Positions 12,800 through 60,235 of a stretch of DNA of 64,000 bases are shown one piece after another (the first letter of the stretch is position 1; each line of letters begins with the position of its first letter). Made by a program: the position numbers and the translations under genes. The notes under the pieces were generated by a model. That model was given only the letters and a program-made list of their open reading frames with translations, was not told the DNA's origin and searched no databases. Source of the stretch: Saccostrea echinata (lineage: Eukaryota); NCBI RefSeq assembly GCF_033153115.1, contig NW_026889774.1, positions 20,894,001 to 20,958,000 of the forward strand, in the 5' to 3' direction.

Positions 12800-15700
12800 C
12801 TATCTATACCAAATGATGTATTCAGGATATGACTGATTCCTGTCATAAACAACAAATTCTCGTTGTGGGAAGTTAGCCACTACACTGTCATATGTTTCTT
12901 GATGAGTTGTGCAAATATTCGAGAGACATATTTTACATGGGGGTCTTCTGAATTGTCCTACTGACCCAGTCATGTACACATCCCCAAGACACATTCTGAT
13001 AAGAAACATGGGGCGTTCTCCCTTCTGGTTTGGTCCTAATATATAAATAGATTATTCTTTACATGGCAGAATTTAATTGAGCACAGCACGTAAACGTCTA
13101 TAACCTTCTAATCATGTATATGCTTATCATGTAGTTTAATACATAAATTTCAATAATTTTCAATATTTTTAAAAACTGAAATGGGAGAGAAATTATCTAT
13201 ACTACCTGAATATGCATGGGACTTTACTGCCACCTCTGCTCCATAAACACCACTACCAAGCAGTCCATTATTTGCCAGTCTACTGTCTAAGCCTTGTGAA
13301 CATATCACATCTACAAGCTGGGCCTTTGTTGCGTGGAAAAAGTAATAATCATTAATTTCTGGGTATGTATGTCGAGTTAAAGAAGGGTCTAAAGTCTTCA
13401 TTACTTTTACAGAGCCTGTCGAGTTCTTCATTTTTTCGAGGGGAACAAAGTTACCTTCAACACTTGCTTTGCGAAATAATCTTTGGCATTCGTCGCCATA
13501 TTTTTGATAGAGACTCACGTTCTCTATTCGCTTTATGCTTACTATTCTTACAGTACCTAGTGTGCTTTTTAGAGTAGCGCCTATTGAATTGAAAGTCAGT
13601 TGGTCTACGGTTTCTAAAGAGTGGACATTTGTTCTAACATCCAAATTCCAGTCTTTCAATTTTTTTGTGTTTGTGTATTTCGTCCAGTATTTTGGTGTCC
13701 TCATGTCTTCCCTGTACTTCCAAGCTAACCAGGCTTTTGTTCCACGCGGTGGCTCATGGTATTGAGAAGACTGTCCGCTCGGTACTGGGTGACCGACAGC
13801 ACTCACTAAAGGGAAATAAAGTTAAGTAAACGTAATACTCCTTTATTTGAAGTATGAACGGAATGCTAACAATTTGAACTATTTTGTCGAAATTCTTTTA
13901 ATCCAGAAAATGATTTTAAGAGAATCATTCTTTTTATTTAAATCTACCTTTTTTCCCAGGACTAGACAATTCATCTTTATATGCCTGCAAAGATGGTTAT
14001 ATTGAGAAGATGTGACCTCACATATAAGCCTAAGAGCTTTTTAACATTCATATACGTAATTCAAATGAGTATATACAGTAACGTATTAGATTAGGAAACT
14101 GTAATCTAACCCACCTTCTCTAATTGTTTCAAGTCTGGACTACCACCGTACAATACGATTCGTACTTCAGAAATGCTATATTTGGCTGAAAACTTTCGAA
14201 TTGCCGCCACAGTGCAAGCAGCTGCTACGTCCAACGGGAACTTCAGCTGTCCTGTACCGAGTGCTGGAAACGCTATGGACTTGTGTCCATGGGAATTGGC
14301 CGTTTTTAGACAATTATAAACAAATTCCTCCAATATCTGAAAGTGTCAAATTTAGTTCAGTTCCATTCAAAACCTTGAATATTCAATTTTCAAAAACGTA
14401 CCATTAGAAATTAACACTTACAATATCTGGTTGGGTTGTATTGCCAGTAGCTTTAGCATACCACGACAACAAGGCGCCATGAAAAACTTCGGAACATTTC
14501 AAATTGTAACCCTTGGTAACAGCAATAAAACCGAAAGCAATGTTATTTTTAGGACATTTTTGATGAAGCTCTTGTACGAGGTTTGGTCCAGCAGCAGAGA
14601 CCAGAGCAGAGGAAGACGCAGAGTTCATGTTGAGATCTTGTCCGATGGCATTGACAACAGCACTAACCTGGTAATGTAAGTCTTGCAGTTAGAACATAGT
14701 ACTTCGTGTATTTAAGCCACATTTTTATTTATTCCACATGAAATGAATTTCTGAGTTCTCTAATATTACTGCAGGGAAACTATCTATGTTCTTCATAGTT
14801 TTACAGTGTATGCTCTTGTATAGAAATGGATAATTTCCTAGATTTTACATTACACAAATTCTGATATATTTAGAAATTACAGTCATACTATATTTATAGC
14901 AACAGATTAAAAAGGCTTACATTTTGATCTGGCAAACTTCCTACTATAACATTCACAGAAATTTTGCCAATATTTTTGCTAAATTTTGTACGCGACATTC
15001 CAGTGGACGAAGCTGCTGATGTTGCTTGGGAAGTCGAACCTGTGGGAATAAAGAAATATACGCTAGTATGTATTAATAAAGCATAAAAGACCAAAAAATG
15101 AATGTTTAGGATTCTAGACGAACATACCTGAAGCACTTTGACCAATTCCAAGTTCATTTAAAAGCTCCTATAAGAAGTCATAAATTAAATAGAAAATTAA
15201 ACCCCCTTTTTTAAATTAAAAAAAAAGTATTAGAATTGCTAGAATACAACAGGGATAACTTCAGCAATTTATTCAAAATTTATTTTAAAAAAAGATAAAA
15301 ATTTCTACATACAGATTGGACTAATGAAGAATCTTGGCTTCCTTTAAAAATCACAATGCTGACGTCTGTAAGACTAGATTGTGGATGATTACGGCTGAAC
15401 TTCTGGATACTCTGTACCATAACTTTAATCGCATTTTTTGTAGGATATCCCAAAGCCCCAATACCAAGCGTTGGAAATGCTATCGATCTTATCGAGTTAA
15501 AGTTCGCCGTTTCCAGACAGCCGGTTACAAACTGTTCCAAACACTAGAAAAGATATCATTGTTGTGTTAGCCAATTATGAAATAAAATTAAAAAAGGCAT
15601 GTTGGCACCACGTGCTCAGCATTCGAATTCTATTTTTCGAGAAACAAATGAACAGAAGAATGTAATATCAGAGTATGAACAAACTCCAGAAGGATCAGGC

Positions 15701-18700
15701 GAGGGTGTTCCCCATTTTGGCAAAGTGCCATGGAAGACATATTTGCATGACAGATTGTATCCATTAGTAATGACTAATCCACCAAAATTTATTCCTTTTG
15801 ACGCTACGTTGTTGAGTTCTGTCTGCAGTCCAGGCCCTGCATCATTCAGTAAAACCCGTGAAAGAGCACCGGTGCTGAGGTTCAAGTCTTTTGGAGCACA
15901 ATGAGCCAAGACATCAGCCTAAAATAATGCACATTTATTTAATTACCTTGGTAAATCTCACTTCTACAACACATAGTAATGAGCTATATAATATGTATAT
16001 GTACATATATTTATCTTTGCTTTTAGGCTCTTAAATCAATGTCGCATCCAAATAATATTTTGGACATGAGTGTACATGTCCTCAAAAAAGTTTGAAGATG
16101 CCATTTAATTTTTAATTTTTAATTAGGCTCCTTAACTACTAGTAATGTCGCATCCAAATAATTTTCTGGCCATGAGTGCACATGTTCTCAAAACAGTTTG
16201 AAGATGACATTTGATTTTCTTAAATCTGTGCTAAAATTTACGCTGTTCAGCTCATACATGTTTATAAAAGCAAGCAAGTTCAATGTGAAATTCAACGTCA
16301 TTAAAATACTCACGCTTTCCTTGTTTAGAGCACCGAGAACTACTTTAATATTTACAGACCCGAGTCTGACACTATTTCCAGAATGTCTGGAAACCTTGGA
16401 AGCACTGCCTTGTTTATGATCTGAAAATAAAAGATAAACATAATTTTCTGAGAAATAAAATATACTATATTAGGAAAAATAAAATGGAGACAGATTTTCA
16501 ACTTACTCTGGTTTGATGTAGATGACGAATACTTTCCTGCTGCGTTTAGGAAGTCCTTGACAATAAAATGTATATAAAATATAACAGTGAAAATGAAAGG
16601 CAAAGTTTATAACATTCAATTTTTATTTTTTCTTATTACAGCCTTTGGATCTTAAAACATGCCTTAGTTTCTGAGCCCTGGTCAAGTTGGGGACAGAAAT
16701 AAAACGTAAACATCCATATGAAATACATGTATACAAACTTTAAGAGTATCCGTCAAACAAATAAATTTCCTTCTTACGAAAATAAAACAATACACTATAA
16801 AGTTATTTGCAAACATATTGACAGGTGCATTTCTATAAACTGTTTTTTTTTTTTCAAAATTAGATCCTGGATCTCACACTGTAGTGATGATCTGATTATA
16901 AAAATGGTGATAATTTTAGATCTTTTTAATCTTTCACATTTCCTTGTTTGGTATTAGGAGAAAGACAATGGATTGTTTCCTAAATGTTTTGACATCCATG
17001 TTATGTCTAAATTTGGATTTCTTCTGATCATCGTATGTGAATTAGTAAAATAAGACTTCAAATGAGTCACAATTTTTATGTATTATTCATAAATCCAAGC
17101 ATATTACAGATTTGTTTTGTAATCGAGAAAATTTAACATCTTACAATAAGAACAAGGCAATAATCTATACCTGGAAAGTGCTGCTTTCTTGTGAGTATAT
17201 TACAATGGACACAGATGTTATTGTTCGTGATGTGCACTCTTTGATGCATTCCAACATTATTTCAGCAACTCTTGGAGAGGGATAGGACAGGTACCCGGTC
17301 CCTATCGGTGGGAAGGCGATGGACCTGTAACCGTCAGCATCAGCCTGATCTAGACATTCTGTCACTAAGTCTGCTAAGATCTGTGAACATGAGCAAATCT
17401 TAGTTGAATCGGACATAAGGTAACAGGCTTCATTGATAGAGGGAAGGACACTCTAACTCTTTAAATGTGCTCAATGGAACTTAAACTCGTATAGAAAGCA
17501 CCAACAAATGAAATGCTTTTTGCTGAATTATTCACTACTCGACCCAGAATCCTGAAATTGGAAGACTCCTTATAAATTAATGAATTTGTAATGTTAATTA
17601 ATACCTGTTCGTCTTTTTTAGATGAATATTTTGCCAGAACTCCATGATATATTGCCTTACAGGCGAGATTTCCTCCTGTTGTGACAGCTATTTCCCCTGT
17701 TGATAACGTGCCAGGATAGTTCTGACGACACTCTCTCTGAATGCCCCTCCCTGCTGCAGATAGGAGGGAACTGGACGCTCTCCCTTGACTCAGATCAAGA
17801 CTAGGATTTGCACTGTGAACTATTACGTCAACCTAAATTAAAAAAGAAACCATCAAAATAAAATATGGAGATAACGAACAGTATTCAAGCTCAAAGTCCA
17901 TTTAAACAATACAAATCGGGAACAGAGCAAAAAAAAAATAAAATAAAATAAATTCAAAGGTGGGATCGGGTGCCATTGAGGAGTGAGCATCCTCTACAGA
18001 CCGGTCACACCCGCCGTGAGCTCCTTGTCATGATCGGGAAATAACGAAAAAAATCCGTCGACAATTCAGTAAAATCCGTCGACAATTCAGTGTGTAAATA
18101 ATGGCCTAACAATTAGTATGAAAAACGTCAGTCAGCATTTGTTAATGAAAGGTTGTAATTGCTGACAAGGTCATTGTATCGACCATAAAACTTGCGAAAT
18201 GATGACTTCAAACGAGACTGTTGATATCCTGTTTGTTAGTCAATAGTTTGCCCCGTTTCAGAAATTCTTCATACGTAGAGCATGCTCTTGCGTATCGAAT
18301 CAACTGGGAGATAAAACCCCCATAAGCGGGTGATAAGGGTATATTGCATAGGTGCTACATAGGTAAGGGAAGTTGACGATTGAAAAATTAAAGTTATCAC
18401 GTTTATCATAAAGCTTGGTTGTAGGTTACCATTAAAGTCTTTTTATAGTAAAATATCCAAATATGAAACAGATGTGTCAGACTTTGTGATATTTTTTTAT
18501 TTCAAGCTCCGTGGGATATATTGAGTCGACATATGAATGAAAGTAACTATTGTTAATTGATAATATGTCGTCGATATATCTAAATGTCGCGTTGAAGGCC
18601 ACAGCAAGTGTTTTATTCTCCTCATGTAGAATTTTTTGAATCAATTCTGTTTCATCTGAACACAAAATGGTTTGCTAATAGGGGGGCGCAATTGGTACCC

Positions 18701-21304
18701 TTGGGTATTCCAACAGATTGTTGGAAGACCTGATTTTCATATATATTTATATACATATATTTCTGATATTGTCAATCAGAAACTCAAACTTCTTTTTAAT
18801 ATCAACTTTAGAGTAATTCTGTGTACAATCAGAATGTTTTTTAGCAAAATAATTTTGCAGATGACCAATGACAAGGTACATGTGAGTATATTTACGAGTT
18901 CTATTTTTATTGAAAACGCAGCTGTTAATGATGTCAAAAAGCCTAGACTTTAATTTATCGTGGGGAATGGTTGTATAAAGTGTTGAAAAGTCGTATGTTT
19001 TGATGTTATTGATTTTGTTAAAATTTTACTAAAAGTTCCTTGAAGTTTTTAAGTATCCACATCTGATTTACACCACTTCTCGAATATACTGTTGTACAGT
19101 ACTCCTAAAGTTTCTCCTTCACTGCTAGAAATATTTTAGTGACGAGTAAAGAAAGAGGCTTGTTAGAACATTTACTTGAACCCGTTATGTATCTTTGTTT
19201 GTAAGGATATTTATGAAGTTTTGGAATCCAGTATAGGTATGGGTATGTTAATTCAAATTCATTTTGATTGTTTGGAATATTAAAAATATTTAAAACTGAC
19301 GTATGGTTTTGAAGAATTTCCTCCTTAGAAAGGGAGCTATGGGTATAAATTGGATTACCACTTGCAGAATTTAATCCTAGTTCCTCTAAAATTCAATTCT
19401 AATAATGAGCCTTACAAACAAAGACAATGCTATTACTGCTTTGTCAGCGGGGACCGGTACATACTGATCGTGTAATCTATCTACATGTAATTCTAGTTTC
19501 ACTTCTGCATTGTCGAAGACATAAGTATAGATGTTTTCATGTAAAGCTTATACGGTACCAATTTTGATGCACCAGATGCGCATTTCGACAAATTATGTCT
19601 ATTCAGCGATGCTCATAACGAAACATTTGAAATCCGAAATATTTATACTGCGCGATTTCAACACCCATCTGATACATTTAATTCATTCTGACAAAGTGTC
19701 AAGTCTTCTTATTCATATTTGGCCCATCGTCTGGCGTAATCTTCTATAGAATTCATAATATTTATGAAATTATGACGCCAGGTGGAAGATCGGGGTTCCC
19801 TAAACTTTGGCCCTCTTATAATAAGTGATTTAAGGTCCTCATTATTAACTATATTTACGTCACCAGTAATGACGTGTCCAGCAGGACTATAGTTGCAGGG
19901 TGAAGAAGAACATGAGCACGATGGAGGTTTATGTTTCAGATGCTCGATATCTAGGCACTGTAGAGTTTTTTTATCATCAAAAAGTTTGGGAGCAATTGTC
20001 GATGTATATTTGTAAGAAATACATAGTGTGGACTTCAAATTGAAATATGGTGGAATACAAGACTGGACCTTTGTGTGATTAAGAATATTACTCATATTAA
20101 CTGCGTCAATTCCTTTGTTGGCATCTTGAAGTTTAAAGAACAAACGGGTTTTTTGAGCAGTATTTTCGGTAGCAGTAGTGAATCAAAAGAGACATCGTGT
20201 TTAATAGGTCAGACCGATGTCCATGACTACGCTTATGTCTCTGTGTACTGTTAAAATGTCCCATCATATTCATATTGCTACACTATGGGCTTGAAAGATT
20301 CCCATCACTATCGACAATGTCATTGCTACCATATGGAGAGGCCGTGCCTAGTTTTCTAATACAGTATTCTTCTCGGTGTCTACGGAAAGGTGTACTCAGT
20401 GGTGGGCTAGTATGATGGTAAATCTTTTCTAGAATTCTAGCTTTCATTAGCAAAATAGAATTATCAGGTAAATTAAAATGCTTGTATAGAAAAGTTAAAA
20501 TAATCTTTCATGCTATTTCTTCGAATTTTGAAGAATCCAATCATTCCTTTCCTTACCTGTTGTCTGGTAATATCTCCTCCAACAATATCGACTGTAATAT
20601 TACCAATCTGGAAACCCGACTTGACTTGAAAACTTGATCCTCGGGAACTGTGTTTGGGTAAATAAGTGGCCCCTACCAACTCGTCGGAATCGTCAGTAGA
20701 TTCTACGGAGAGAATACACTTATTGCACATAGAAGAAGAATAAAGCAGCACAATGTCATATTGCTCTAGATCAAAACAGGTCTCTTCATTAGTAAGGAGA
20801 ACGTTTACTTTTAGCTTTCATCTTAAATTTTTTAAATAGAATTATCCCAAAAGTTTCATTTAAGGATACATAACGCAAACAAAAAAAATGACGCATGGGT
20901 TGATATATACATATATTTTCTGACTGGTTTTGAATAGAAATGACATAAGTAATAAATCCCTAAAATATAAAGAAACCGTACGTTTTCTTTGCTGATTAAA
21001 TATGCGAGTCTGTTTTGCTTTCTATGTAATTCTATATAAAATTCTGGGCACATTTTTAACATTGTCTTAACAAAATCTTACAAAATCCTCCCACTTTACC
21101 TGGCAAACATTAATCAAATCACCTATTTGAATATAAATCTATGAGGAAAATCGCTGATTTTTGATAAAAGTTTACTTGTGTTATTTATCCTTAAAGCAAC
21201 GAAACTATTTTCTTACCTTCTTCATCAGATTCTGAGGATTCTGAGGATTCCGACAACGAAGAATCAGAATCGTCCAGTAACCTGCGATTTCTGTAACCAG
21301 CCAT
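12800..21304 (-). CDS. Macro-PARP paralog A: acidic N-terminus, 3 macrodomains and ART/PARP catalytic domain, ~930 aa
   Basis: 15 GT-AG exons in frame: 21217-21304, 20557-20702, 17605-17832, 17171-17380, 16507-16555, 16314-16420, 15685-15918, 15313-15543, 15128-15167, 14921-15039, 14422-14667, 14115-14336, 13948-13984, 13206-13805, 12800-13035 (2793 nt). Macro motifs VDVIV..., SIAFPxxGTG; catalytic motifs YFFHAT, GVYGAE..KSHAY, EFVVYD...YPEY. Confidence 0.9.
16038..16220. repeat. Direct duplication with ~106-bp spacing in an intron of paralog A
   Basis: AATGTCGCATCCAAATAAT...CATGAGTG...AGTTTGAAGATG at 16038 and 16144. Confidence 0.75.
17860..20150 (-). mobile_element. Degenerate Penelope-like retroelement (Naiad-type RT) in intron 2 of paralog A
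   Basis: Frameshifted RT fragments: CSC...GHVITGD (CxC linker), YLYWIPKLHKYPYKQRY, TFRYIDD, GVLSPS/LIRYARACS-like C-terminus. The ORF ends after the RT with no C-terminal GIY-YIG. Confidence 0.85.
19569..19612 (-). ncRNA. Type I hammerhead ribozyme motif with a core mutation
   Basis: Minus strand reads GCAUCG-CUGAAUA-GACA UAAUU UGUC-GAAA-UGCGCA-UC-UGGUGC: stem I, stem II, palindromic stem III. The core is CUGAAUA rather than CUGANGA. Confidence 0.65.
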
Positions 21305-22454
21305 CTTAACTTTCTATGCGTGTCAAATAATTACAGCAATTTTACATAACAATAGGATAAAATTGCATATATTTATAATCTTTTATAATAGAGGAATTTT
21401 TATAATTCTTTGGTATCCTTCCTCATATATTTTACTATTTTTATTCAATTCTGGATTTTCTTCCTCGAGCATCTCGTGGAACCAGGAAGTTGTTTCAAGT
21501 ATTGAAGAGGCTGATTGATAAAAATATATCTGATTATTGTATTAAAATTAATTTTGTTATAATTGTATTTTCATAATAAACCTTGTGTTTTTGCCCAAGA
21601 TCTTTATTCATCTGATACAAAAATACACATTACCTATGATATATTATTTTATATTACTTTACGACTTTGCTGTACTATCAAAGCAGCAAAATTAAAAGTG
21701 CATGAATAGGAAAAATAAAGCTATATGCAACTAAGAGATAAGTAATGTTATATTTCAATTATATTATCAGAATCTTTTGAATCAGGTCCCAGGTCAGCCA
21801 CACACAATATAGTATTATAAGCGATGCCGTTCTCTGCATTATTTGCTACTAGTATTTTTTGATATCTATGATTATCTTTAGTAACATAGCTTATTTCCGG
21901 TAGGTCAAATTCAGTTATAAGTCACTGCTTCTTTCTAGACAGTGTACGTTTTGAAAATATTTTACACCATAGATTAAATTCAGGAACTGACAAAAGATAC
22001 TGTGAATTCACTAATTTTTGAGGTGTATAATCTTCCTTGTTTTGGGTATGATGAGAACGACGAATGTATGACCCCCACAAGGTGTTAAAATTATATGTAT
22101 ATATATTATATTATATATCTTATTTATTGTTTTTGCTGATAAATGCCAGCAAAATATTTTGCACAAACTTCAGTGAAAATCTGTTTTAAAACTGGTCCAA
22201 GTAAAATGTAGTGGAATGGACCCCGCATAAATTGCATAAATTGGAAGCAAAGTATAAGTATTATAATATATGATTGATACGTTACCACTCATGCATGCCA
22301 AATTTAAAAAGAACACACACACACACACAATTATTTTCAATTCATTTAATATCCTTCAAATTACAAGGTACTTTTTCCTGACCTTTAAATCGCATTTCTC
22401 CAGTGAAGTTAAAGGTAAAAAATAATCCTTTTACCCCCATGCATATGTCGTTCA

Positions 22455-25400
22455 TCAGATATACCAAATAAGAAATTCGGGATAAGACTGATTTCTGTCA
22501 TAAACCACGAACTCGCGATCGGAAAATGCTCCACCATTGGCCACTACACTGTCATACATCTCTTGATGACTTGTACACTGAGCATTACTGCATTTTTTGC
22601 ACGGGGCCCTCCTAAAGTTAGTGTCTACATTTGTCAAAAAGACATCTCCGAGGCACATCCTGACCAAGAACATGGGTCTTTCACCTTTGCTATTCGTTCC
22701 TATGAACAAAACAAAATATTTCTGTGTAAAACATACCGATATACTCATTGTATAACTCTACAAGTCATCATGTCTCCCATAGCAATTAATTCGTTGTTTG
22801 TCTTTCTTGTCATAAACGAAAGTTAACTTCTAGAATGCTGTTTTATTATTCTGAATCACCAATAGTAGTATATTTACTATAATTTTGTTCGCCTGTCGAA
22901 CCAGGCATCAAAGATTAAGATGTGCATAGTTTTAATAAAATCACAATTTAAAAAATAAAATAAGATATTTTGTATGTTCAATTAAATTTTCATACCTTAA
23001 GAATATTTTAGGAATGACTCTCATTCTTGCCAAGTTACTCGAGTATTACCTGGTTTGGGCCAGTTTACATGTCTGTAGCAACGATTTCAAAAGTGGGAGG
23101 GGGGCAACTTCCCCCTCCCCCCAAAAATGAAAAAAAAAACTAAACTGACCAAAAGGGGGGGGGGCAACTTCCCTAAATTATCTGCAAAGAAAAAACGAAA
23201 AAAAAAAAAACAAGCATTCTGAGAGTATTGCATTAGCAATACTAGTCCTCTACCGGCAAGTGCAATCTGGTTCCCGTTAAAAATTGAAAATGCCATATTT
23301 CGGTCAAAAATCAATAAAGTGGAATGAAATGCAAACTTGATCTATAACTCATCAAGGTAAAGTCACATACCAAAAATCAGCTCAATATTTGCAAGCGTTT
23401 AGAAAAAAAGTGCGGAAAAGCAAGTGGGACACACTGACAGACAGACAGAGGGTCAGACAGACAGACAGACAGACGGACGGACAGACTAAGAGGAAACGTA
23501 TAGTCCCCTTCGGTTTCACCGGTAGGGGACTAAAAAGCAAATTTACTGTTCAAATCCTGAAATTTGCCTGTGCTTGACCTATCAACATCAAAAAGTTGGG
23601 GGGGGGGGGGACTAGCATCTAAAATACTACCATAGCAAAATCTATACTCAGAAAAAAGTGGGGGGAGCCCACTGGCCCCCCACCCCGCGTTCTACGGGCC
23701 TGGTTTACGTTTTACGCGAAGCATGGGGGATGGAAACATGCAGATTTTAACCTCTACACAAAAGCTAGGCTGTTATATAAAGACAACATGTAGTAGAGGT
23801 ACTTTTATTAAGAATTATAAAAGTTGAAATGATTTTAAATGAAATAAAATAAATATTAAATATAAATTAAATAAACTAAATAAACTATTAAATATGTTAT
23901 AAATGCATAAATGATAAGTTTTCTATTAAAGTTTCATTCTGTTCATTCTTTACTAACATGGGTATTTAGTGACATAGATATACACCCCTTTGGATCCACA
24001 CCTGTACATATACTTTTACATGACCACACATATCTATTGGTCAGATTTTGAAACGGATAGATTTCATTGGTTGAAAGTTTAGTCTTTGTGGGGTACTGAG
24101 TTTTATTCAGAATTAGCTCAAGGTTTAGAATGGAGAAGACATAGTTATATAGCTGCTGACTTTATTTATTCAAAGACCTAAGACAGTTCCTGAAAATGTA
24201 AGTTTTACCCTTTTTTATGCCTTAAGATATGTTTTCCATAATTTATGTGAAATAGGTGGAAAACATAATATTTCACTTTTAAATGTTAACATATTGAATT
24301 ATCTGTCTGTATAATCAGATGTAGATAAATCTGATGGAGTTTTCTTATTAATTAATTTGTATATATACCTAGAAATATTTTTATGTGAATATTTTGATAA
24401 TCAAACTAATTTGAATATCTATTTATTATGAGAAAGGTATTTGTAAAGAACAAATCCTGATTATTTTATTTATTGTACATAGGTAACACCATAAGTAAAG
24501 AATTAAATTATTGCTTTGGAGAAAGTTCAATTCCATAAATTGGTATGTCTATCTGTATATATATTTTTTATGATTTGTACAGAAACATAAAAGAAAGATA
24601 ACTCTTCACAAGACTGTTAAGAGTAATTATGTTGTAAGAGTTAACTCCCTTATATAGAATTTCTCTATTTTATCATATCGAGTGAAATTTATAAATATGA
24701 TAAATAATTGTTAAAGGGAAGACAGATAATTTGTTATATTTTTATGATCAGAATATTAGATAATTGATATATTGTTTGTACATATTTTTATGACGCAATT
24801 TGTATATTGCAGGACATATCCATTTTCCATTATTCCATATATTCCATTAGTTCCATTTTCCATTATCCATTTATCATCAACTAGACATGTCACCATAATA
24901 AAATGTAAAATTTAAAAAAGCTACAAGTGTGTTTTCCATCATTGCCGGGAATACCCGCTACAAACATACAATGTACCTGTGTAACCGTGAGACTTTGATG
25001 CCATTTCTGCTCCATAGACTCCGACACCAAGCCGTCCGCCCCCTAGCCTACTATCTAGCCCCTGTTCACAGATCAAATTCACAGCATTTGGTTTCGTACC
25101 GTGGAAAAAGAAATACTCGTTTATTTCTGGATAAGTGTGCTTCGTTAAGGATTGGTCAAGATACTTCATTACCCTCACCGGGCCCAGCGAGTTCTGTACT
25201 TTATCCAAAGGAGTAAAATTCCCTGCCATACTAGCTTTGCGAAATAATCTCTGGCATTCATCGCCGTACTTTTGGAACAAACCAACATTTTCAAGCCGTT
25301 GTATACTGACAATCGTTTTGACTTGTACAGATTTTTTAAGGGCATTGCTTATGGAACTTTTGGTAACTTGATCCACCTTTTCAAAAGAGCTACCCCCCAA

Positions 25401-28400
25401 ATTCCAATGTTTTAGTTTTTTGGTGTCGGTGTATTTTGTCCAATATTTCGGCGTCCTGAGATCTTCCCTGTACTTCCATGCCAACCAGGCTTCTGTGCCT
25501 CGCTTTGGTTCGCTGTATTGAGAAAAGTGTTCGACAGAAGCTGATTTTCCTGCTTTGCTCACTAAAAAACACAATATATGAAAATCCAAGTAAATGTAAT
25601 TTATTGTAAGTTTTATTCACAATTTAACCTAAACACAATTCTTTGCATGAATATGGTAACTCTAAATGCACTTATTTTCATGGGACCCAACTTTTCACGA
25701 GGTTTGAAAAACAAATATTGATTTCATTTCGTGGTAAGTTGGTAGACATGACACTGTAGATTAAAATTTTAACCTTTCATGGAAGACATGTATTCGTGAT
25801 TTTCTTTATACCATGAAAACAACGAGAATTAATGCTCATGAAAATAAATGCTTTCACAGTTTATTCTTTCATTACAAAGCTTCGATGGTGAAAGAGACAT
25901 TGAAAAAAAAATCCTCTACCTCTGTGTCCAGGAGTGGTCATTTCATCCTTAAAGGCCTGCGAAGAGATAATGTCATAAAGCTATATATTTTTTCAAGATA
26001 ACATTTCCATCTTTATATTTGAGAGAGTTAAAATGTGTTTGTTGTTTTTGTATGAAAAAGGAAGTCATGATAGTATAAAACCTTCTTAAGCTGATTCAAG
26101 TCTGGACTCCCACTATACAGTAAAATTCGTATTTCGGAAATGCTATATTTGGCTGAAAACTTTTTAATTCCTGCGACAGTACAAGCAGCAGCCACATCTG
26201 GTGGGAACTTTAACTGTCCTGTTCCTAATGCTGGAAACGCAATGGACTTGTGTCCACGTGAATTGGCCGTTTTCAGACATTTATAGACGAACTCTTCTAG
26301 GACCTATAATATGTTTAAGGAGAAGTTAATCTTTGAAAATCCTGAACCCTTAAAGACATATTTTAAGAAGAACTTACAATATCTGGTTGGTGTTTACTGC
26401 CTGTTGTTTTTGAGCTCCATGAAGATAAGGCACCATGAAATACTTCTTTACAATTTAAGTTGTAACCCTTAGTAACAGCAACAAATCCAAAAGGAATTTT
26501 ACCAAGACATGTCTGATGAAGCTCTTGCATGAGATTTGGTCCAGCAGCAGACACTAGGGCGGAGGACAAGGCGGAATCCATGCTGAGGTCCTGCCCAATG
26601 CTATTGACGACAACATCTACCTGGTATTTATATATCGGTCATTAAATACAAAAATTAACCAATATATTTTTGCTTATGATTCCTGTACAGTTCTCCGAAT
26701 AGGAAAATGATCAACATCGTGTAAAATTCTTTTGTTTCATAAGTGCTCTTGACTATCGCAAAAACTTGTCTTAAGTATTGTAGCATTGCCACATTGAGAA
26801 GTCTTACATTTTGATCTTGAAGACTACCAACTGAGACATTCACATTGATTCCGCCAATATTATTACTAAAGTTTGAGATCGAAATTCCAGGCGAAGCTTT
26901 AGATCCTCGCTTTTTATTGGAACTCAAGCCTGAAAAAATTTGAAAACGTGTTTTGGAATGTTGAAAAGAGTTATATTAATTTTTTTTTGTTTGAAAGAAA
27001 GTTTTGACAACATGAAAAAAGAATCTTTACCTAAATGTTTCATATAAAGAGTTCAGAACTCGTATTATTCTGAAAAGAAATGAACCCTAAAACTGTGACC
27101 ATTTCCGAGCTTATTTTACAATTATTATTTTTAAAAAACTTACTCAGTTTTGAGGTTGATGACGAATATCTCATAGCTGCGTTTAAAAAGTCCTTTAAAA
27201 GAAATATACGGGAAATGATTCAATCCAGACAAAGTATTGATAGCAATTTTTATTTTAAATAATATATAATTTCTTAACTTTTATAAGGATGTAAATACGG
27301 ATGATCACGTGATCATATTATATAAAGCCCAAAGGATTTTATGGTAGATTTGATCACTTGCCAGTCCGTATTCACATCACGATAAATGTTTAAAAGTTAT
27401 TCCTTACATTACTTATTTACTTATTCTGCAAGAAAGACAGTAACAGAAATATGGCTGAAACGAAGCAAAGTAAAAAATATCCAAAATCCATTATTTTCTT
27501 ATGGATCGAACGAACAATTTCATTTTTATATAAAAAGTGTCTTATGAAAAACAACTGCGCTACAAGCCATAAATTGAATTCCGTAACTGTTAAATACAAA
27601 TACACTGTCAAAATTTCCATTCGACATATCTATAATACCGAAATTGTCAAACTTTAACCATTCTATATAACCATATGGACAGTTTTTTGTGTCTCTTAGA
27701 CCATCCTGGAAGCTTTAAATAATGGAAATTTATATATATATATATATATAAAAGGTATTTTTTTTTTACTTTTCATTTTCTCAAAAAAAATTGATGTATG
27801 AATGCATAATTTGATTTTGATTCAAAATAGATCAAGAAGGGAAAAAGATAAAAAAGATCATGAGGGGAAAATAAGGTAAAAAATGTTAAGACAAAATTTA
27901 GAGAAAAAAATAACTAACTGATAATAAGTCTTTCATAATGTAACATTAACCAGTATTGTTGAAACATTCGTTAGCGATTACCTGAAAACAACTACTTTCT
28001 TGTGAGTATATAACAATGGACACAGATGTTACTGTTCGTGAAGTGCAGTCTTCAATACATTCCAACATTATTTCAGCAACTCTTGCTGGATTGTATGACA
28101 GGTTCCCAGTCCCAATCGGTGGGAAGGCAATAGACCTGTAACCGTCAGCATCAGCCTGATCCAGACATTCTGTCACCAAGTCTGCTAAAATCTGAAAAAA
28201 AATTCCAATCAAAAGTCTCATTTTTATATCAACAAAACCTTTTCTTTGAGTCCAAAATTGAGCTTCTTCAACTGTTTAATATATTTGCATGGAAATTTTA
28301 TCTGTTTTCCTTACAACCCTTATTTTTATTGTTGACAAATATCTCATTTGTACCCTTATTTCCTCTGTATTTCTTGGAAGAAAAATGTTTTGAAAAAATA

Positions 28401-30709
28401 GCCCAAGGCAAATGTTTAAATAGCCCCAGGGATCTTGAAAACAATTCGACTTGCAGGAAATTCTAAGCAAGATTCGTTGTTCAGATAACTCAGTTATATA
28501 TTTATTAACCCCAAGAGGTAAATACATTTGAAGAATATTTCATAATTTTAATATTGGGGAATTGTCATGCTTTTTTTTTTTGGGGGGGGGGGGACAAATA
28601 TAGTAATTTTGAAAAATAGTAGCGATATATATTTATTACTTGGACATGACACAGAAGTGACAAATATCTCATTTGTACACTCAGTTTTTCTGTATTTCTT
28701 GCAGGAAAAAAGTTTTGAAAAAATAGCCCAAGACAAAGGAACAGAGATCTTGAAAACGGTTTGACTTGCAGGAAATTCTTAGCCCAATTCGTTGTACACA
28801 TAAATCAATTATACATTTAATAACACCAAAAGATTATTACATATTCCAATTTGATAAACATTTCATAATTTTAATATTTGGGAATATTGTCTTCTTTTTT
28901 TTTTAATTATGGACAAATATAGTCATTTTGAAAAATAGTAGCGATATATTTGTTGCTGGGACATGACATAGAAGTGATAAATATCGTATTTGAAACCTTG
29001 GTTCCTCCGTATTTCTTGCAAGAAAATGTTTTGAAAAACAATGTTCAACATATGCTATTACTAAGAAAAAATTACTTTAATGAGTGGTGGTAATTTAAAA
29101 GTTTTAATTCGTAAAATTGTTCATCTTATTCTGGCAAGCACTGCATTCAAATTTTCAAAAAACAATGCACATTGATTATAATTTGATGCCGCTTCAAAAA
29201 GTATTTAAAAATGCTATTGAGAGAAATGAAGACAAAAACCAATATACGGATTTTATCATACAATTTCATAACATTTAAAAAAAAAAATAAATGTTGGGAT
29301 TTTTTTTGGGATAAACTAGGATGTCTTGTGTTATGAATATTCATTTTTTTTACTCACATAAAGAGTAAGAAACACCACAAAAGGCAATCATGTAATTTTG
29401 CTCATTAATTCACCTAATACCCACAGAAATCATGGGTCCAACTTTTAAATAAAAAAAAAGAACCATAATGATACCCGTTCGTCTTTCTTAGATGAATATT
29501 TGGTCAGAACTCCATGATATATAGCCTTACAGGCGAGGTTTCCCCCTGTTGTGACAGCTATTTCTCCTGGATCTAACCTTTCAGGATAGTTCTGACGACA
29601 CTCTCTCTGAATGCCCCTCCCTGCCGCGGCTAGGAGGGAACTCGAAGCTCTCCCTTGGCTCAGATCGAGACGAGGATTTGTACCGTTGACTATTACGTCA
29701 ACCTTAATCGAATGATTATAAGCAATCAAGACAAACATTTCAGTCTTTTGTAATGTTATATAATTATATGTTATATAATTATATAATGCATATGATTCTA
29801 CTCCAGTTATAATTAGAAAAAAAAGATATTCCGTCTAATTTTTTTCTCAGATTTTCTGAACACTTGCTGACATGTTTTTATGTAAATGAAGGAATCATCC
29901 ATATTCCATGACGTAAGAAGCAGAACTTATATTTCATCAACATTTCTTCACATGCTACTTTATTAACTTTATTAATGAAATGTGAAGATCAAATAAACAC
30001 AAACATTCAGTTTCTTAAAGATCGATTAATTTTGGACATAAATCCATATGACAAGGTTACTGAAACCTTTATTTATTAATTTATCTGTTAGATTATTTCT
30101 TACTTTTTGTCTGGTAATTTCCCCTCCAACAACAGTAACCGTTGCATTACCAATCTGATAACCTGACTTGGCCTTAAAACCTGAACCCCGAGGCCTGTGT
30201 TTGGGTAAATACGTGGCCCCTCTTAGATCCTCCTCTGAATCCTCAGATGATTCTGAAAGAAAGTGAAATAAAGTTTTTAAAAACAATTTTATTTTGAAAT
30301 AAAAATCTTAACTTTTGTATGATTTAAAAAGATCCGTATAAAAAATTTTCACAGTATAAATTTGAAACGGATGCCTTGAAGCCACAATTGATAATATTTA
30401 TCTGAGTCGGCTCACTTTTACCAAATTTGAAACCCTGCCGCATAATGTCAGTCATAAAATTTGACAAAATTAAGCACTGTAAAGAATTTTTTTTTCTTGT
30501 ACACGGAATCTCCAAGATTTTACTAAGCTTGTATGTCACTTAAAAACACTAAACATATACTTTTTCACGTCCAAGTGCACGTTACTATAATCATTGCTTG
30601 CTAACCTACCTTCGTCGTCGACACTCTCGGAATCAGAGGTTTCAGACGACGAGGAATCCGAATCATCAAACAATCTACGAGATCTGTATCTGTATCTGTA
30701 GCTAGCCAT
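22455..30709 (-). CDS. Macro-PARP paralog B: acidic N-terminus, 2 macrodomains (M1, M3) and catalytic domain, ~729 aa
   Basis: 11 exons in frame: 30610-30709, 30104-30252, 29475-29702, 27982-28191, 27144-27192, 26808-26929, 26378-26620, 26082-26303, 25920-25956, 24977-25561, 22455-22699 (2190 nt). FFHGT / GVYGAEMASKSHGY / DREFVVYD. Confidence 0.92.
23209..23533 (+). mobile_element. Short HINE/Helentron-like element; related copy at ~45748-46020
   Basis: AACAAGCATTCTGAGAGTAT..AGCAATACTAGTCC start, (GACA)n tract, 3' hairpin TAGTCCCCTTCGGTTTCACCGGTAGGGGACTA. Confidence 0.7.
28300..29040. repeat. Imperfect ~320-bp tandem repeat (2-3 units) in an intron of paralog B
   Basis: GACAAATATCTCATTTGTAC at ~28333 and ~28659, with a variant at ~28976; TTTTGAAAAATAGTAGCGATATAT at ~28607 and ~28926. 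Confidence 0.7.
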
Positions 30710-31174: not shown

Positions 31175-32865
31175 CTCTCTATCTCTCTCTTTGTAATTCT
31201 ATATATGCACAATTCTGTTATAAAAAAAAAGCTCTTGAATAATCATGATTCTTGAAAAAAAATTTATTTATTTATTTATTTTTTTCCCTCCCATTTTGAA
31301 CAGTATAATATATTATATTGGTTCCACCAGGAATAAAGTAGATATGATTTCCTTACTTTCCTGTTTTCCTCACTGGCTTCTATATTGAAAAAAACGAACG
31401 CATCAACACTTATTGCATTTTTCGAAGTATTGACTGAAAAAGGCAATAATTGTTTTATTTGTGATTTTATGATTGAATGAAACAACCACATTTAGCAAAC
31501 CACAATATTTTCTTGGTTGTTTAAATTTTTTGACCTCCTAGCAAAACGCAATGAGAAAAGGAATGGTGAAAATAAACATACACTGTAATCAATTGTATTA
31601 ATTTGGAAATTTTTAATCGATTTTAAAATAGATGTCAGGCATTAAGCATTGAAGTGGAGAGGGGATGAAAAATCGACAAGTGACTTGAAAAAAATCTCTG
31701 ACAAACCAAAATAATTAAAGAGGAGGAATCTCCAAAGTCCAAAATCTTATTTGGGGCTTGGTGTGAGGATGAGGGTTAGTGTCCATGGAAATATGAGGTA
31801 ATTGACTATCGAATGTTATGTTCACCTGAGTGAAAGACGGATGCAGGTGAAATAACCTGTGTATCAATTTAGAAGTTCTTAGTCTTTTTTCAGTCAAATG
31901 ATTTTAGTCCAATGTAGGAAAAATAAGTTCTTTTATTCACCTGGAAGGTCACGTGCAGATGAAAATAACATAGGTTTTTTCTGCAATGTTGGAATCAGCC
32001 GATCAGAAAGCTGGGAATAATTTAATCATATAATAAAATTAATTTTCTTTGATTTGTCTGAGTTCTGAGTCTTGATTTAAGCTATTTCCTGTTGCCTACA
32101 TGTATGGTCCAAAACTTTGCACTTTTGCTCCCAGACCTGGTTTTTAGATTCGAATTTTAGCAGAAATGCATTGACAATCCTTGCTTGACTCTGATAAGAT
32201 ATGAAGACCAGAATAACAGCTATATTACAGGGCAGGGTGTTCCACATTTTCATTTATTGGATTTTTATAACTTAAAATCTAAATGTAGACATCTTAATGA
32301 ATTTGAACTGCTCTATTTTCTTTCTATTGAAATATACTGACATTATGACAGAATTTTTAGATTTAACACTTTAAATTGCCTGAAAAAAGAGGACAAGAAC
32401 TTTTTTCAACCTGACGATACAATCCAGATCAAACACCCATCCCTGTACATTAAGTTTTATTTTCAACATACAAATGAGAATTTTAGGCTGTAAAATATAA
32501 TAAAATGAATCTATCCTACAAACTGCTTAGATATATCAGGTACGTTTTCTATCGATGATATGTCATTAACACATCAAAATGAGGTGAATTAAAATTAATT
32601 AATGTATTTTTCTGGAGAAAGTAATAGAGACTGGCATATTTGTTTTGTCTTTCAAGATCAAGACAAATTTGTCATATAAACAGACTACTTTTCAAATGCA
32701 GTGAATGATAAAGATGTCCAGTCTTGACCTTTTTGCTCTTGCACTTTGAACGTTATGCTGATCTTAGCTCATAAAAGCAACGATGGTTAAACCTTTGATT
32801 TTTACATCATAAAGTTGATTGAAAAAATTTCGTATGGCTTTGACAATCACTTAGCTTCATAGTAA

Positions 32866-33325: not shown

Positions 33326-33356
33326 ATTGAGCTGGCTGATCCAACAGCTATTTTAA

Positions 33357-55563: not shown

Positions 55564-58500
55564 TTAACAACTGTACCAAATTAGATATTCAGGATAAGAC
55601 TGATTCCTATCATAAACAACAAACTCTCGATCCGAAAAGGCTCCACCATTGGCCACTACACTGTCATGAATTTCCTTGTGAATTAAACATACAGGGTTCG
55701 TACATATTTTGCATGGTGGCCTCTTATAATTTCTTTCTGCCTTGGTCAGATAAATATCACCAAGACTCATTCGCACCAAAAACATAGGATAACGATTTTG
55801 ATTATCACATCCTAAATGAAAGAAAAATAGTTCATAACAGATATCAATAAATGATAATAAAGCTTCTTTATACCCTTAGTGTCATTTTTTTTACTGACTA
55901 CAGTATTACACTAAATATGTATTAAATATTATTTCAAATACAAAAGGTAAATTTAACGTTTTTCTTGCAATGCTTACATAAAATAAAAGACCAAAAGACC
56001 AGTAAAGTGATCATTACCTGCATATTTATGTGATTTAGAGGCTACCTCAGCACCGTACACTCCTGCCCCAAGTCTTCCACTCGCTGCAAGCCTACTGTCC
56101 AATCCTTGACTGCATATGATGTCTACGTTTTCAGGCCTTGTACCATGGAAAAAATAGTACTCGTTAATTTCGGAGTGAGTATGTTTTGTCATGGATGAAT
56201 CCAATGAACCCATTACTTGCACAGGCCCAAGTGACTGTGGAATTTTATCTAATGTCGTGAAATTTCCTTCCACGCTTGCTTTTCGAAATAGCCTTTGACA
56301 TTCTTCACCATACTTAAGAAGCAATTCGACATTTTCTAGTCTCTGAATACTGATAATATGTGCATTTCCTAATGTTTTACTTAAAGCACTTGCAATGGAT
56401 CTGCGCGTTATCTGGTCAATAGTTTCTAAATGGAACGTTCCCGATTTTTGCAGCAGATTCCAAGACTTAAGGTTTAAATCGGCCGTAAATTTGGTCCAGT
56501 ATGGTGGTGTTCTGAGTGCTTCTCGATATTTGTAATCAAGGTAAGCTCTTGTTCCTCGTTGTGGAACAGAATGTAAGTCCCAAAGTCTAATTGGAGCTGA
56601 TCGGAAAACAGTTTGTTTACCTTTAATAGTATATAAATAAATGATAATAATGAAGTAAAAATGATTGCTAATTCCTTGCTATATTTGTCCTATATGTTTA
56701 ATATAACAAGTAGATTAAAATATTTTCATTAATACTTACTTGAGGAATTGACCTGGTTTATTGCGTCCTTAAATGCCTATCAATAATAAATAAAAGTAAC
56801 TATTAAATTAATCAAATGATGAATATCAGTATGGTGTTGATTAAATAAATGTAACACAAATGATCCTTTATACAATGTAGAAAATACAGCTAACTATTAA
56901 CCTCTTTCCATACAGGATTGAAAACTTACCATTTCTAGTTTAGGTAAATCACAACTCCCCCTATACAGTACAACTCGTACATCTGAGATACTCTGTTTCT
57001 GTCGTTGCTTAGAAAACTTTTCTATAGACGATACTATGGTAGAAGCTGCCATATCTGCAGGAATCTTATGAAATCCAGTCCCAAGGGCAGGAAAGGCTAT
57101 GGACGTGTAGCCACTTTTATTTGCTTTTTCCAGACAAAGCAAGACAAAGTCCTCTAAAAACTATAATACATATTGACTATCCCAGAGAACATAATTAAGC
57201 CCTTAATGCCGAATTTATTGGGAATATAAATGAATTTAGTAATGATATTGTTTTTGTTTGTTGATTGGATTTTGAGTTTAGATTTACTTGGAAATCAGCA
57301 TTCAACCTCCAAGTAGCTTTACTTACCTCATGAGGAAGTTTGTAACATGCAGTAGGTATTGAGTATCCTGGTATTAAAACACCGTGATACAATTTGTGGC
57401 ACTTAAGATTGTGACCATTTGATACAGCAATGTCTTTATAATTAATTCCGTTGGGGTAATTTTGAGTAAGTTCAATTTTTAGTCGATGCCCAGCAGCCGC
57501 CATTATGGCAGCAGATGCCCCTTGTGTCATCTCGAGATCGTGAGCAACGCTATTGACAATGACATCAACCTGTTAAAGGAATCACAGTACATGTTTATCA
57601 AATCTTACGAAATAATTCAGCAGTTTCTCCGGAGGGAATGTTTCCGTTTCGGATCGATACTGTTGCAAACAATATGGTAATTAATGTACGTTTTATTTAC
57701 AGTATCATTGAATTGTCACCTTTTCTTCAGCTATACTCCCAACCAGTACTCTGAAACTGATGTCTCCAACTTGACCAGAACATAAAAGTCGGGAAACAGA
57801 GTTCGGAGCTAAAATATAACAAAACATGCAAAGTTTACAACAAACATGTATTTATCGTAATTGATGTCGGAAGACCAAATACAGTTTTAGTACTCTAAAG
57901 TCATATACAAATAAAATTAAATAAATTTATATCATGTGTTAATAAATGGAACTTTGCATAATCCAACAAAAAAATTGCGTCGGAAAAAATAAGTGGAAGA
58001 AAATTACTAAAATAATATCGATCAATCACATAGGTATTTGAATTTTTCTACAATGAATTTTCAAACCTATGGCGATTTCGGCCCCAAGATATCCTCGTCC
58101 TTCGCCTAATTCGGTCTTAAATACCTGAAATATAAAACATGTTCTATTTGTTTTGAAACATTTGTTATTTGTATGTCATTATTTATCTTTAAGGTACCAG
58201 AGAGGTGAGAAAAATAGAATGCATTAAATTATTTGAGAGATTTAGAGATATTATCGATATTTTTTTTAAAATCAGAAATATTTTTCTATTGTTACATGAA
58301 TGTAGGATTAAACGAAATTCATACGAATGCTACTTCGTAAAATTCAAACATTTTTGATTTTTGGGTAAATGCATTTTGTTTTTTATTCGAGGAAATTATA
58401 TGTAAATACTCAGCATACCGAAAGAAGTTACATAATTTTATGGAGACTCAAAGTATGCAAACATCCTTTAGTATGTATGTTATTTTCTAAGCACGTATGC

Positions 58501-60235
58501 GCAGATTCGACGCCATGGCATTCACAGGTACTGGAAGTTGCAACCACGTATTCAAATCGCAAATTTTATAATTTTCACTTAGCTTTTCAGTGGTTTTAAA
58601 ATTTGTTTATATAGTTTTTTGCCGGCATAGTAGAAATCATTGCACAGACCTTGCTTGACTATGATACAGTGCTGGAATTAATTAGGAGGACTTCTAAACT
58701 AAAAAGCAATTCTATGATTATGTAAGCTTGTGAAACTTCAGTTAAATGTTAAGAAGTAAAGGTACATTTACTTTGCCTATTCCATATACTGATACTTTTC
58801 AATTGAAAAATAACAGAAATAGATGTTAGAACACTTACATTTTGAACATACGGCCAGTCACTGCTTCCTTCATACACCACAATGACAATTCGCCAGATAT
58901 TCGTACGAGAATTTTTGGTGCTAAAGTCTCGTATTGTTTTAACCATCAATTTTGCTGATTGATCAACAGGATAATGTAAAGAACCAATTCCGAGTGTTGG
59001 AAAAGCAATGGAGAGTACAAAATGACTGTTTGCTGTTTCGAGGCACTTTATCATAAATTTCTCTAATATCTACAAATACCACATTATCATCAAGATCAAT
59101 TAAATCAAAGCAACTAACTGTAAAAAGGGTCCATAAAGAAATAAATTTCACTGTATAAATCTAAAATTTAAATGTATTTATTGCTATTTTTATTATTCTA
59201 ATAGTGGAATACTGTAATTTATCCCTTGAGCAAAAGTGATATTTTTGCAAGTGATATTTTAACTATTTTCACTATGGCAAAATATAAAAATCGCGGCAAA
59301 ACTCGAGATGTTATAAAGAAAATACTCCTGTAGAAAGCAAGCTGAGAAAATAAATCATCCTGGTCGAAGATCCTAAAATTAAGAACTTTCTCCAAATGGT
59401 TGCTAAATTCCATGTTAACAATTTTTAATCTTTCAATCGCTTAGCTATGATGTCTCACAACCGCTCAGCTATGACAGCACTGCATACGACACTGCATTAT
59501 GAAAAGTCAGTGACAAAAGGAAATAAAGAATTAATAATAAACATAAAATCTAATAAATTGTAATTATATATGGAATTTATTTCATTCGTGAGACAGGATT
59601 TTTTAAATATTTTCATTCGTATTTCGCACTCAAGAAAATATTTTAAAAAATCCTGTCCAACTCTTAACATAGATATATTCAAGATAGAGAGAAACAATTA
59701 TGATTTTAAAGTTACTGAAGATGGATCGGGTTGACTGGTTCCCCAGTGGGGCAGGGCCCCGTGGTACACAAATTCGCAATGAAGTTGATGACCCTTACTG
59801 ACTGCAATGTCTCCGTATTCAATGCCATTAGAATATTTCTGGTTTAATTCATCTTGCATTTCTCTTCCTGCAACTCTCAACAGTGCTTCAGACATTCTTC
59901 CATTGCTGAGTTGCAAGTTTTTTGGTCCACTACACACTAACACATCTGCCTGCATCACAAATCAAATTATTTTCATGTCTTGTCATTTCTTTCATATCTG
60001 ATTGATGTTCTTACAATAAACATTGAAAGCTTTGAAATTGTTTTAATTTAAGATAATGGTTTATTTATTTCAGGTTTCTTTGATCCACTAAGATTAAGAT
60101 TTTTATGTATCCTTAAGTGAACTTATACAGAACGCCCACAATACGACTTTCCCAATTTTAGCACTATTTTGTGTCACTTTTTTTCTTCGGCACAGTTGAT
60201 TGAACATGGTGCTCTCATGATGCTTTAAATATACT
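55564..60235 (-). CDS. Macro-PARP paralog D: 2 macrodomains (M2, M3) and catalytic domain; 5' end unresolved or degenerate
   Basis: Exons 55564-55810, ~56018-56596, ~56740-56776, ~56930-57160, ~57327-57569, ~57719-57808, ~58067-58124, ~58840-59069, ~59715-59948; linker exon at ~60110-60235 has no clear in-frame donor. FFHGT / GVYGAEVASKSHKY / DREFVVYD. Confidence 0.8.

What the first reader, a model, noticed from the sequence alone, without database searches (positions are those of the whole stretch)
22563..22602. Conserved C-x2-C-x4-C-x2-H putative zinc module inside the catalytic domain, placed differently from the tankyrase zinc site
Seen in all four paralogs after RR/KR/VR-(P/A)P: A CKICLSNICTTH (~12902-12937), B CKKCSNAQCTSH, C CKKCNNSVCTVH (~37657-37692), D CKICTNPVCLIH (~55679-55714). 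The four ligands and their spacing are invariant while intervening residues vary freely. Established: the tankyrase catalytic Zn motif is C-x2-H-x4-C-x2-C and lies before the 'LLFCRVTLG' strand. Here the motif follows that strand and the ligand order is reversed, suggesting an independent metal-binding insert near the acceptor site.
Basis: partly seen in the sequence, partly recalled or inferred. Interest (0 to 1): 0.7.

Follow-up and report, generated by a model that had tools for sequence, protein, structure and literature searches.

The report
New zinc loop in invertebrate PARPs
Four neighbouring oyster genes for ADP-ribose-transferring enzymes carry a three-cysteine, one-histidine loop that is kept from sponge to lancelet and likely binds zinc, at a different place from the only zinc site described so far inside this enzyme domain.

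Summary
The motif is real: C-x2-C-x4-C-x2-H lies in the last exon of four tandem macrodomain-PARP genes (minus strand), and gene B is spliced in transcript-type assemblies. It marks a whole subfamily of H-Y-E macro-PARPs in molluscs, brachiopods, annelids, lancelet and a sponge. All 69 complete relatives retrieved without using the motif carry it; 0 of 9 conventional clade-3 PARPs of the same genome do. Three Cys are fixed, the fourth ligand switches His/Cys at least 9 times on the tree, spacers vary fast, and one Pacific-oyster copy lost all four ligands together. That is the pattern of a single tetrahedral metal site, most likely Zn (about 0.8; not measured, geometry not seen). Three corrections: spacing is not invariant family-wide; CCCH is not the reverse of tankyrase's CHCC; and the loop is not the acceptor loop but the beta6-beta7 loop, which in tankyrase-2 and PARP15 touches the D-loop and forms the activating head-to-head interface. 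Best reading: a convergent structural zinc loop bracing that regulatory surface. Ten literature searches found no description. Verdict: new variant of a known kind, interest 0.5.

The parts
22566..22601 (-). Paralog B motif CKKCSNAQCTSH (C-x2-C-x4-C-x2-H), predicted Zn loop in beta6-beta7
12902..12937 (-). Paralog A motif CKICLSNICTTH
37656..37691 (-). Paralog C motif CKKCNNSVCTVH
55678..55713 (-). Paralog D motif CKICTNPVCLIH
22602..22613 (-). RRAP anchor; its last Pro is the counterpart of TNKS2 P1120 and of the PPP in PARP15
   Evidence: Pro 161 of 161
22455..22699 (-). Last coding exon of gene B (MFLVRMCLG strand, motif, YDSVV, catalytic Glu codon 22512-22514, YPEF, stop)
   Evidence: covered by contigs in 4 of 4 laid runs
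22700..24976 (-). GT-AG intron of gene B that splits the catalytic domain
   Evidence: loose ends match the upstream exon; splice contexts
24977..25562 (-). Penultimate exon of gene B: N-terminal half of the ART domain with catalytic His (25101-25103), D-loop GLDSRL and Tyr (25014-25016)
22455..30253 (-). Gene B: acidic N-terminus, two macrodomains, ART domain (5' end a little beyond 30253)
   Evidence: exon map of P0002 residues 34-729; ortholog P0004 has 2 Macro + PARP
12800..20766 (-). Gene A: macrodomains plus ART domain (H-A-T variant); last exon 12800-13035
37542..45056 (-). Gene C (= NCBI model P0010): macrodomains plus ART domain; last exon 37542-37789
55564..59958 (-). Gene D, mapped part: macrodomain exons plus ART domain; last exon 55564-55811
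   Evidence: a D-type transcript piece in 3 of 4 laid runs (checked)

Best explanation
The motif is a conserved three-Cys-plus-His/Cys loop in the beta6-beta7 loop of an invertebrate macrodomain-PARP subfamily, and it likely binds one zinc ion as a short structural loop that likely arose independently of the tankyrase zinc site. Shown: position between the PP and DSV anchors, ligand conservation, His/Cys exchange, joint loss, H-Y-E triad, splicing of gene B. Inferred: the metal is Zn2+ and non-catalytic; the folded loop braces the end of beta6-beta7 where, in tankyrase-2 and PARP15, this loop packs on the D-loop and forms the head-to-head contact that switches catalysis on; so it would hold or tune the NAD+-site D-loop and display fast-changing spacer residues on that surface. 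The macrodomains would read ADP-ribose marks and the ART domain would add more, probably in innate immunity (weakest step).
For: Three Cys invariant in 16 of 16 aligned own-genome copies and 159, 156, 159 of 161 family domains, with no other fully conserved Cys or His besides the catalytic His: one site, not a cross-brace finger. Fourth ligand His in 162 and Cys in 49 of 228, at least 9 switches on a tree built without the loop (FastTree only). In 43 disjoint close pairs ligands differ at 1 of 172 positions, spacers at 101 of 382 (26%), the whole domain at 13%. All four ligands are lost together in the Magallana gigas copy and in P0152, nested among the window's paralogs. Motif-blind search: 69 of 69 complete hits carry it. 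Controls: 0 of 9 conventional clade-3 PARP loci of this genome. AlphaFold2 model of relative P0011: mean pLDDT 93.2, 95-97 over the loop blocks, no regular secondary structure there; fold matches PARP15 (Z 23.1, rmsd 2.5, 195 aligned) and tankyrase (Z 21.4, rmsd 1.8, 175 aligned). Same 12-residue 2-4-2 span as the tankyrase 'short zinc-binding loop' (PMC8941426). Loop role in TNKS2 and PARP15: PMC9712121, PMC12572374.
Against: No metal measured and no ligand geometry seen: the tools return no coordinates. A confident AlphaFold loop is not proof of a metal. The loop is dispensable in at least one lineage that keeps H-Y-E, so it is not needed for the fold. The interface salt-bridge positions of TNKS2 (E1046/R1143) and PARP15 (R576/D665) are variable here (positions 624, 716, 717), and the conserved D-loop Arg and PP also occur in conventional clade-3 PARPs, so nothing specific shows that these enzymes dimerise. 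HMMER did not align the TNKS2 loop in register; that mapping rests on anchor motifs and on the PARP15 alignment (E 0.03). A few members lack a clear second or fourth ligand (P0180, P0181, P0217; L016 and L017 have the His six residues on). The model is of a relative (64% identical over the last exon), not of gene B.
Confidence: 0.62

Rival explanations
1. It binds zinc but only as an outward-facing knob for binding a partner or target (protein, RNA or ADP-ribose chain), with no effect on the D-loop or catalysis.
For: Spacers vary twice as fast as the domain average on a fixed ligand scaffold; basic residues are common around it (RRxPCKK); the loop can be lost while H-Y-E is kept.
Against: It emerges exactly where the partner D-loop contacts beta6-beta7 in TNKS2; other surface loops vary nearly as fast (21-23%), so the variability is not special; near-universal retention across very different domain architectures suits an intrinsic role.
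Confidence: 0.18
2. The site binds another metal or cluster (Cu, Cd, mononuclear Fe or 2Fe-2S with three Cys and one His) or works as a redox or metal-sensing switch that turns the enzyme on or off.
For: Three Cys plus His also ligate 2Fe-2S in CDGSH proteins, and oysters accumulate Zn, Cu and Cd (both recalled, no call); oxidative removal of zinc was done for TNKS2 (abstract passage).
Against: Free His/Cys exchange and flexible spacing within 8-14 residues fit mononuclear tetrahedral Zn best; no Fe-S family was hit in Pfam.
Confidence: 0.12
3. No metal: the cysteines form a disulfide or are kept for packing.
For: Only the three Cys are strictly fixed; the fourth position floats.
Against: An odd number of Cys with an exchangeable His/Cys, joint loss of all four, and a protein that by homology is intracellular argue against disulfides.
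Confidence: 0.06
4. The motif is the tankyrase zinc loop moved to another place by a rearrangement, so homologous rather than convergent.
For: Identical 2-4-2 spacing; tankyrases are the best sequence match of the ART domain among solved structures (108.8 bits, PARP12 89.1, PARP15 73.6).
Against: Different ligand order and different loop; flanks of the motif are those of the clade-3 PP...YDS loop; 2-4-2-H is a minority spacing (47 of 228).
Confidence: 0.04

Closest known systems
Tankyrase (TNKS1/2, clade 4) catalytic-domain zinc loop
   Same: Short four-ligand loop inside the ART domain; 12 residues with 2-4-2 spacing in the window's copies; H-Y-E triad; best sequence match of the ART domain in the PDB; tight core superposition (rmsd 1.7-1.8).
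   Different: Ligand order C-C-C-[H/C] versus C-H-C-C; beta6-beta7 loop versus the loop attached to the G-loop; no ankyrin or SAM domains; the tankyrase site itself is absent.
PARP14/PARP15 macro-PARPs (clade 3)
   Same: Tandem macrodomains closest to PARP14/PARP9; C-terminal ART with best structural match PARP15; longer members have PARP14-type RRM and KH domains; tandem duplication as described for invertebrate PARP14-like genes (PMC4245714).
   Different: Catalytic Glu kept where clade 3 has I/L/V/M (PMC2964712); no WWE hit; Cys/His loop where PARP15 has KNPHNPTDL; R576/D665 salt bridge not conserved.
Zinc knuckle (zf-CCHC, C-x2-C-x4-H-x4-C) and B-box half-sites (patterns recalled, no call)
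   Same: The family variant C-x2-C-x4-C-x4-H (42 of 228) has knuckle spacing with the last two ligands swapped; C-x2-C-x4-C-x2-H also resembles part of B-box 1.
   Different: No Pfam zinc-finger hit on this loop; no second set of conserved ligands as a B-box needs.

Membership tests
ARTD/PARP catalytic domain (PF00644) | Profile match and PARP fold | tested here: met
   Pfam over cut-off for spliced models; Foldseek and VIA-align matches
ARTD/PARP catalytic domain (PF00644) | NAD+-binding His and Tyr plus third triad residue | tested here: met
   H-Y-E in all four window genes; Glu in all 69 complete motif-blind hits. The 162/161/162 of 162 is partly circular because the filter asked for H and E/D/Q.
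ARTD/PARP catalytic domain (PF00644) | ADP-ribosyltransferase activity (mono or poly) | not testable with these tools
   needs an assay
Tankyrase (clade 4) | Ankyrin repeats and SAM domain | tested here: not met
   Only Macro and PARP in Pfam for the window's gene models
Tankyrase (clade 4) | C-x2-H-x4-C-x2-C zinc loop before the LLFCRVTLG strand | tested here: not met
   That stretch has no conserved Cys or His
Tankyrase (clade 4) | H-Y-E triad | tested here: met
Clade 3 macro-PARPs (PARP14/15) | Macrodomains N-terminal to a C-terminal ART | tested here: met
Clade 3 macro-PARPs (PARP14/15) | Aliphatic residue in place of the catalytic Glu | tested here: not met
   Glu here; criterion from PMC2964712
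Clade 3 macro-PARPs (PARP14/15) | Grouping with PARP14/15 in an ART-domain tree | not tested
   The trees held family members only; sequence score favours tankyrase, structure score favours PARP15
Clade 3 macro-PARPs (PARP14/15) | PARP15-type dimer with Arg/Asp salt bridge | tested here: inconclusive
   Salt-bridge positions variable; no complex model obtained
Short zinc-binding loop (structural class) | Four Cys/His ligands within a short span, conserved together | tested here: met
Short zinc-binding loop (structural class) | Tetrahedral geometry and bound Zn | not testable with these tools
   Model coordinates are not returned; loop pLDDT 95-97 only

The most novel reading that the evidence does not exclude
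These genes belong to an undescribed, sponge-to-lancelet PARP subfamily that joins ADP-ribose-reading macrodomains to a glutamate-bearing, tankyrase-like catalytic domain able to make poly(ADP-ribose), and whose second, independently evolved zinc loop replaces or gates the head-to-head dimer switch of tankyrase and PARP15, making the enzyme self-activating or zinc/redox-controlled in invertebrate immunity.
Probability: 0.2. Interest if true: 0.75.

Novelty: new variant of a known kind. Interest (0 to 1): 0.5.

Why it matters
A 2022 paper states that no ARTD other than tankyrase is known to bind zinc in the catalytic domain (PMC8941426, passage), and clade-3 macro-PARPs are described as having lost the catalytic glutamate (PMC2964712). 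This subfamily would break both rules, and databases label its members simply PARP14/15-like mono-transferases. Because the loop sits on the surface that switches on tankyrase-2 and PARP15, and nature supplies a copy that lost it (Magallana gigas XP_011436474.3), it offers a direct test of how beta6-beta7 ordering controls ART activity and of what separates mono- from poly-ADP-ribosylation. It also gives a diagnostic motif for a large, tandemly expanded gene family in farmed bivalves.

Tried and rejected
Complex prediction of a two-copy ART domain with zinc was not available, so dimerisation is open. Single-sequence AlphaFold of the loop-less P0013 was useless (mean pLDDT 36.6). The wide structural search was not obtained; the Foldseek and second-look searches only return PARP folds and say nothing on the loop. 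No RNA holder is listed as RNA on record; the runs laid are 'RNA?' guesses, and the evidence for splicing is the exon-exon junction itself. No earlier scan notes were found. NCBIfam added only macrodomain hits. Ten unnamed distant hits could not be assigned to taxa. No vertebrate, insect or nematode name appeared among named hits, but lists are capped and most representatives are unnamed, so loss in those groups is not shown. HIV gp120 rows (E about 0.5) are chance. B-box, PBZ, CCCH-finger and heme CxxCH readings were considered from memory and rejected on spacing, lack of Pfam hits and lack of further conserved ligands. The oyster tankyrase was not identified among the 18 of 30 PF00644 loci inspected, so no tree with tankyrase was built.

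Full report
Observation. A six-frame scan finds four and only four C-x2-C-x4-C-x2-H matches in the 64 kb, all on the minus strand, at 12902-12937, 22566-22601, 37656-37691 and 55678-55713. Each lies in the last exon of a gene whose upstream exons are macrodomains and whose last two exons are the two halves of a PARP catalytic domain. The 80-residue last exon of B is 100% identical to an NCBI model labelled Saccostrea echinata (P0002); that model fuses genes B and A, and P0010 is gene C. Contigs from 4 of 4 laid runs (at most 3 samples, 2 studies; RNA status is a guess by the tool) cover the B exon, stop at its 5' edge and continue with the 3' end of the previous exon, so the 2.3 kb GT-AG intron is spliced out; they also run past B's stop codon. 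Five base differences in those contigs leave the four ligands untouched.

Family. The own genome has 18 matches to the exon on three contigs. Sixteen were aligned (L012 and L015, near-copies of L011 and L014, were left out): the three Cys are invariant and the His floats; 16 of 18 have it within four residues of the third Cys, L016 and L017 six residues on. Database searches gave 13, 396 (120 listed) and 1,465 (150 listed) hits. Of the 243 proteins then held, 232 passed my extraction filter and gave 228 unique C-terminal segments: 162 C-C-C-H and 49 C-C-C-C in strict form, 9 in looser spacing, 8 unmatched, of which 3 lack all ligands; shuffles match 1.4% of the time. Of the 11 dropped proteins, 9 carry the motif and 2 (P0125, P0220) are conventional PARPs without Glu or motif. 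Because those searches used the motif, I repeated the search with the N-terminal part of the domain only: 76 hits, 7 truncated, and all 69 complete ones carry the motif (67 strict, one of them read by eye, and 2 loose) and the Glu. In the own genome 17 of 19 matches to the penultimate exon sit beside a motif exon, and the other two are conventional PARPs. Nine conventional clade-3 loci of the same genome have the same PP...D[SC]C loop with no Cys cluster and no Glu. Named carriers: many bivalves and gastropods, Lingula, Owenia, Helobdella, Lamellibrachia, Branchiostoma and the sponge Corticium. Architectures include PARP14-like RRM-KH-macro-ART, and fusions with caspase, SPRY and zf-CCHC domains.

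Why a metal site. The three Cys are present in 159, 156 and 159 of 161 domains and no other Cys or His except the catalytic His is fully conserved. The fourth ligand switches between His and Cys at least 9 times on a FastTree tree built without the loop (one search gave 11 with a cruder pattern). In 43 disjoint close pairs the ligands differ at 1 of 172 positions and the spacers at 101 of 382, against 13% for the whole domain; two other surface loops differ at 21% and 23%. In Magallana gigas the closest match to gene A has the loop NKTNSSKGGGTQQDL with all four ligands gone and H-Y-E intact, confirmed in named NCBI records and nested among the window's paralogs in the tree. His/Cys exchange with joint retention or joint loss is, from general knowledge of zinc sites, what a single tetrahedral Zn site shows and what disulfides do not. 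AlphaFold2 on relative P0011 with 91 sequences gave mean pLDDT 93.2 and 95-97 across the loop, as coil; geometry could not be read. I put Zn binding at about 0.8.

Where it sits. HMMER aligns RRAP-[motif]-YDSV with PARP15 TPPP-KNPHNPTDL-FDSV. TNKS2 has AHSPP-G-HHSV here (HMMER's gap placement differs, so this mapping rests on the anchors). [quoted passage not shown] For PARP15, beta6-beta7 engages the dimer interface and the D-loop, and beta7-beta8 is the acceptor loop (PMC12572374, passages). So the motif emerges right after the P1120 counterpart, on the donor-site and head side, not in the acceptor loop, which here is typically 7 residues (110 of 159). The tankyrase zinc loop is C-H-C-C, 12 residues, attached to the G-loop near the acceptor site, and was said to be the only such site in ARTDs (PMC8941426, passages; a Naegleria tankyrase-like domain has the same site, bioRxiv 10.1101/2022.04.24.489311, passages).

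How it most likely works. Shown: an H-Y-E ART domain with PARP fold, macrodomains closest to PARP14/PARP9, and a conserved ligand loop in beta6-beta7. Inferred: one structural Zn pre-orders the end of that loop, bracing or tuning the D-loop over the NAD+ site and reshaping the surface used for head-to-head activation, with variable spacers exposed. Against a conserved dimer: the salt-bridge positions vary, and the conserved Arg and PP are general clade-3/4 features. Whether the enzyme makes chains is open; H-Y-E alone does not decide it (PARP3 and PARP4 are counter-examples, recalled). The immune role is an inference from tandem expansion and from PARP14-like architecture (PMC13224862, passages; PMC4245714, passages and section 3.1.5).

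Placement and novelty. Sequence profile scores favour tankyrase (108.8 bits; PARP12 89.1; PARP15 73.6), structure scores slightly favour PARP15 (Z 23.1 versus 21.4), architecture is PARP14/15-like. It fails defining tests for both tankyrases and clade-3 macro-PARPs, so I file it as an unnamed subfamily between them. Ten full-text searches showed no paper on this motif or subfamily; I saw listings and abstracts for most hits and passages of eight papers (also PMC2964712, and PMC10450202). The library lacks most subscription papers and I read no supplements; alignments in the supplements of the PARP evolution papers could include members without comment.

Verdict. Observation confirmed; interpretation partly supported, with position and order corrected. 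New variant of a known kind; interest 0.5.

Noticed in passing
window 33819-36234 (-): A fifth, decayed copy between genes C and B: three macrodomain exons with in-frame stops and a frameshift, and no PARP exons found.
   Followed up: partly
window 13327-13335 (-): Gene A has H-A-T in place of H-G-T at the catalytic His (4 of 162 domains have Ala); in TNKS2 a G1032W change at this Gly inactivates, so A may differ in activity.
   Followed up: no
window 37542-37789 (-): Gene C reads D-C-E-F where 161 of 162 domains have R-E-F before the catalytic Glu.
   Followed up: no
window 12800-30253 (-): NCBI model P0002 fuses genes B and A (and P0003 fuses the next two copies beyond the window); contigs run through B's stop into a 3' untranslated stretch, so the fusions look like annotation artefacts.
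   Followed up: partly
window 25450-25560 and equivalents; P0011 residues 48-80 and 143-170: The subfamily has its own additions outside the PARP core: an RGT...KY helix before the P-x-Y-W start and an insert of about 40 residues before NE[YH]xxFHGT; only about 195 of 250 residues align to PARP15.
   Followed up: no
window 19709-20182 (-), 32855-33391 (+), 54814-55233 (-): Open frames that read like retroelement fragments (my recall; no Pfam hit) between the genes; one lies next to the decayed copy.
   Followed up: no
P0238 (Lingula), P0233 (Corticium), P0182 (Bulinus): The same ART domain is fused to a caspase domain, a P-loop NTPase-like region and a SPRY domain, all typical of immune or cell-death proteins.
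   Followed up: partly
G000:C25:20978530-20978763 and 20992155-20992382 (L002, L006): Two more copies continue the tandem array beyond the window's end, making six intact ART domains.
   Followed up: partly
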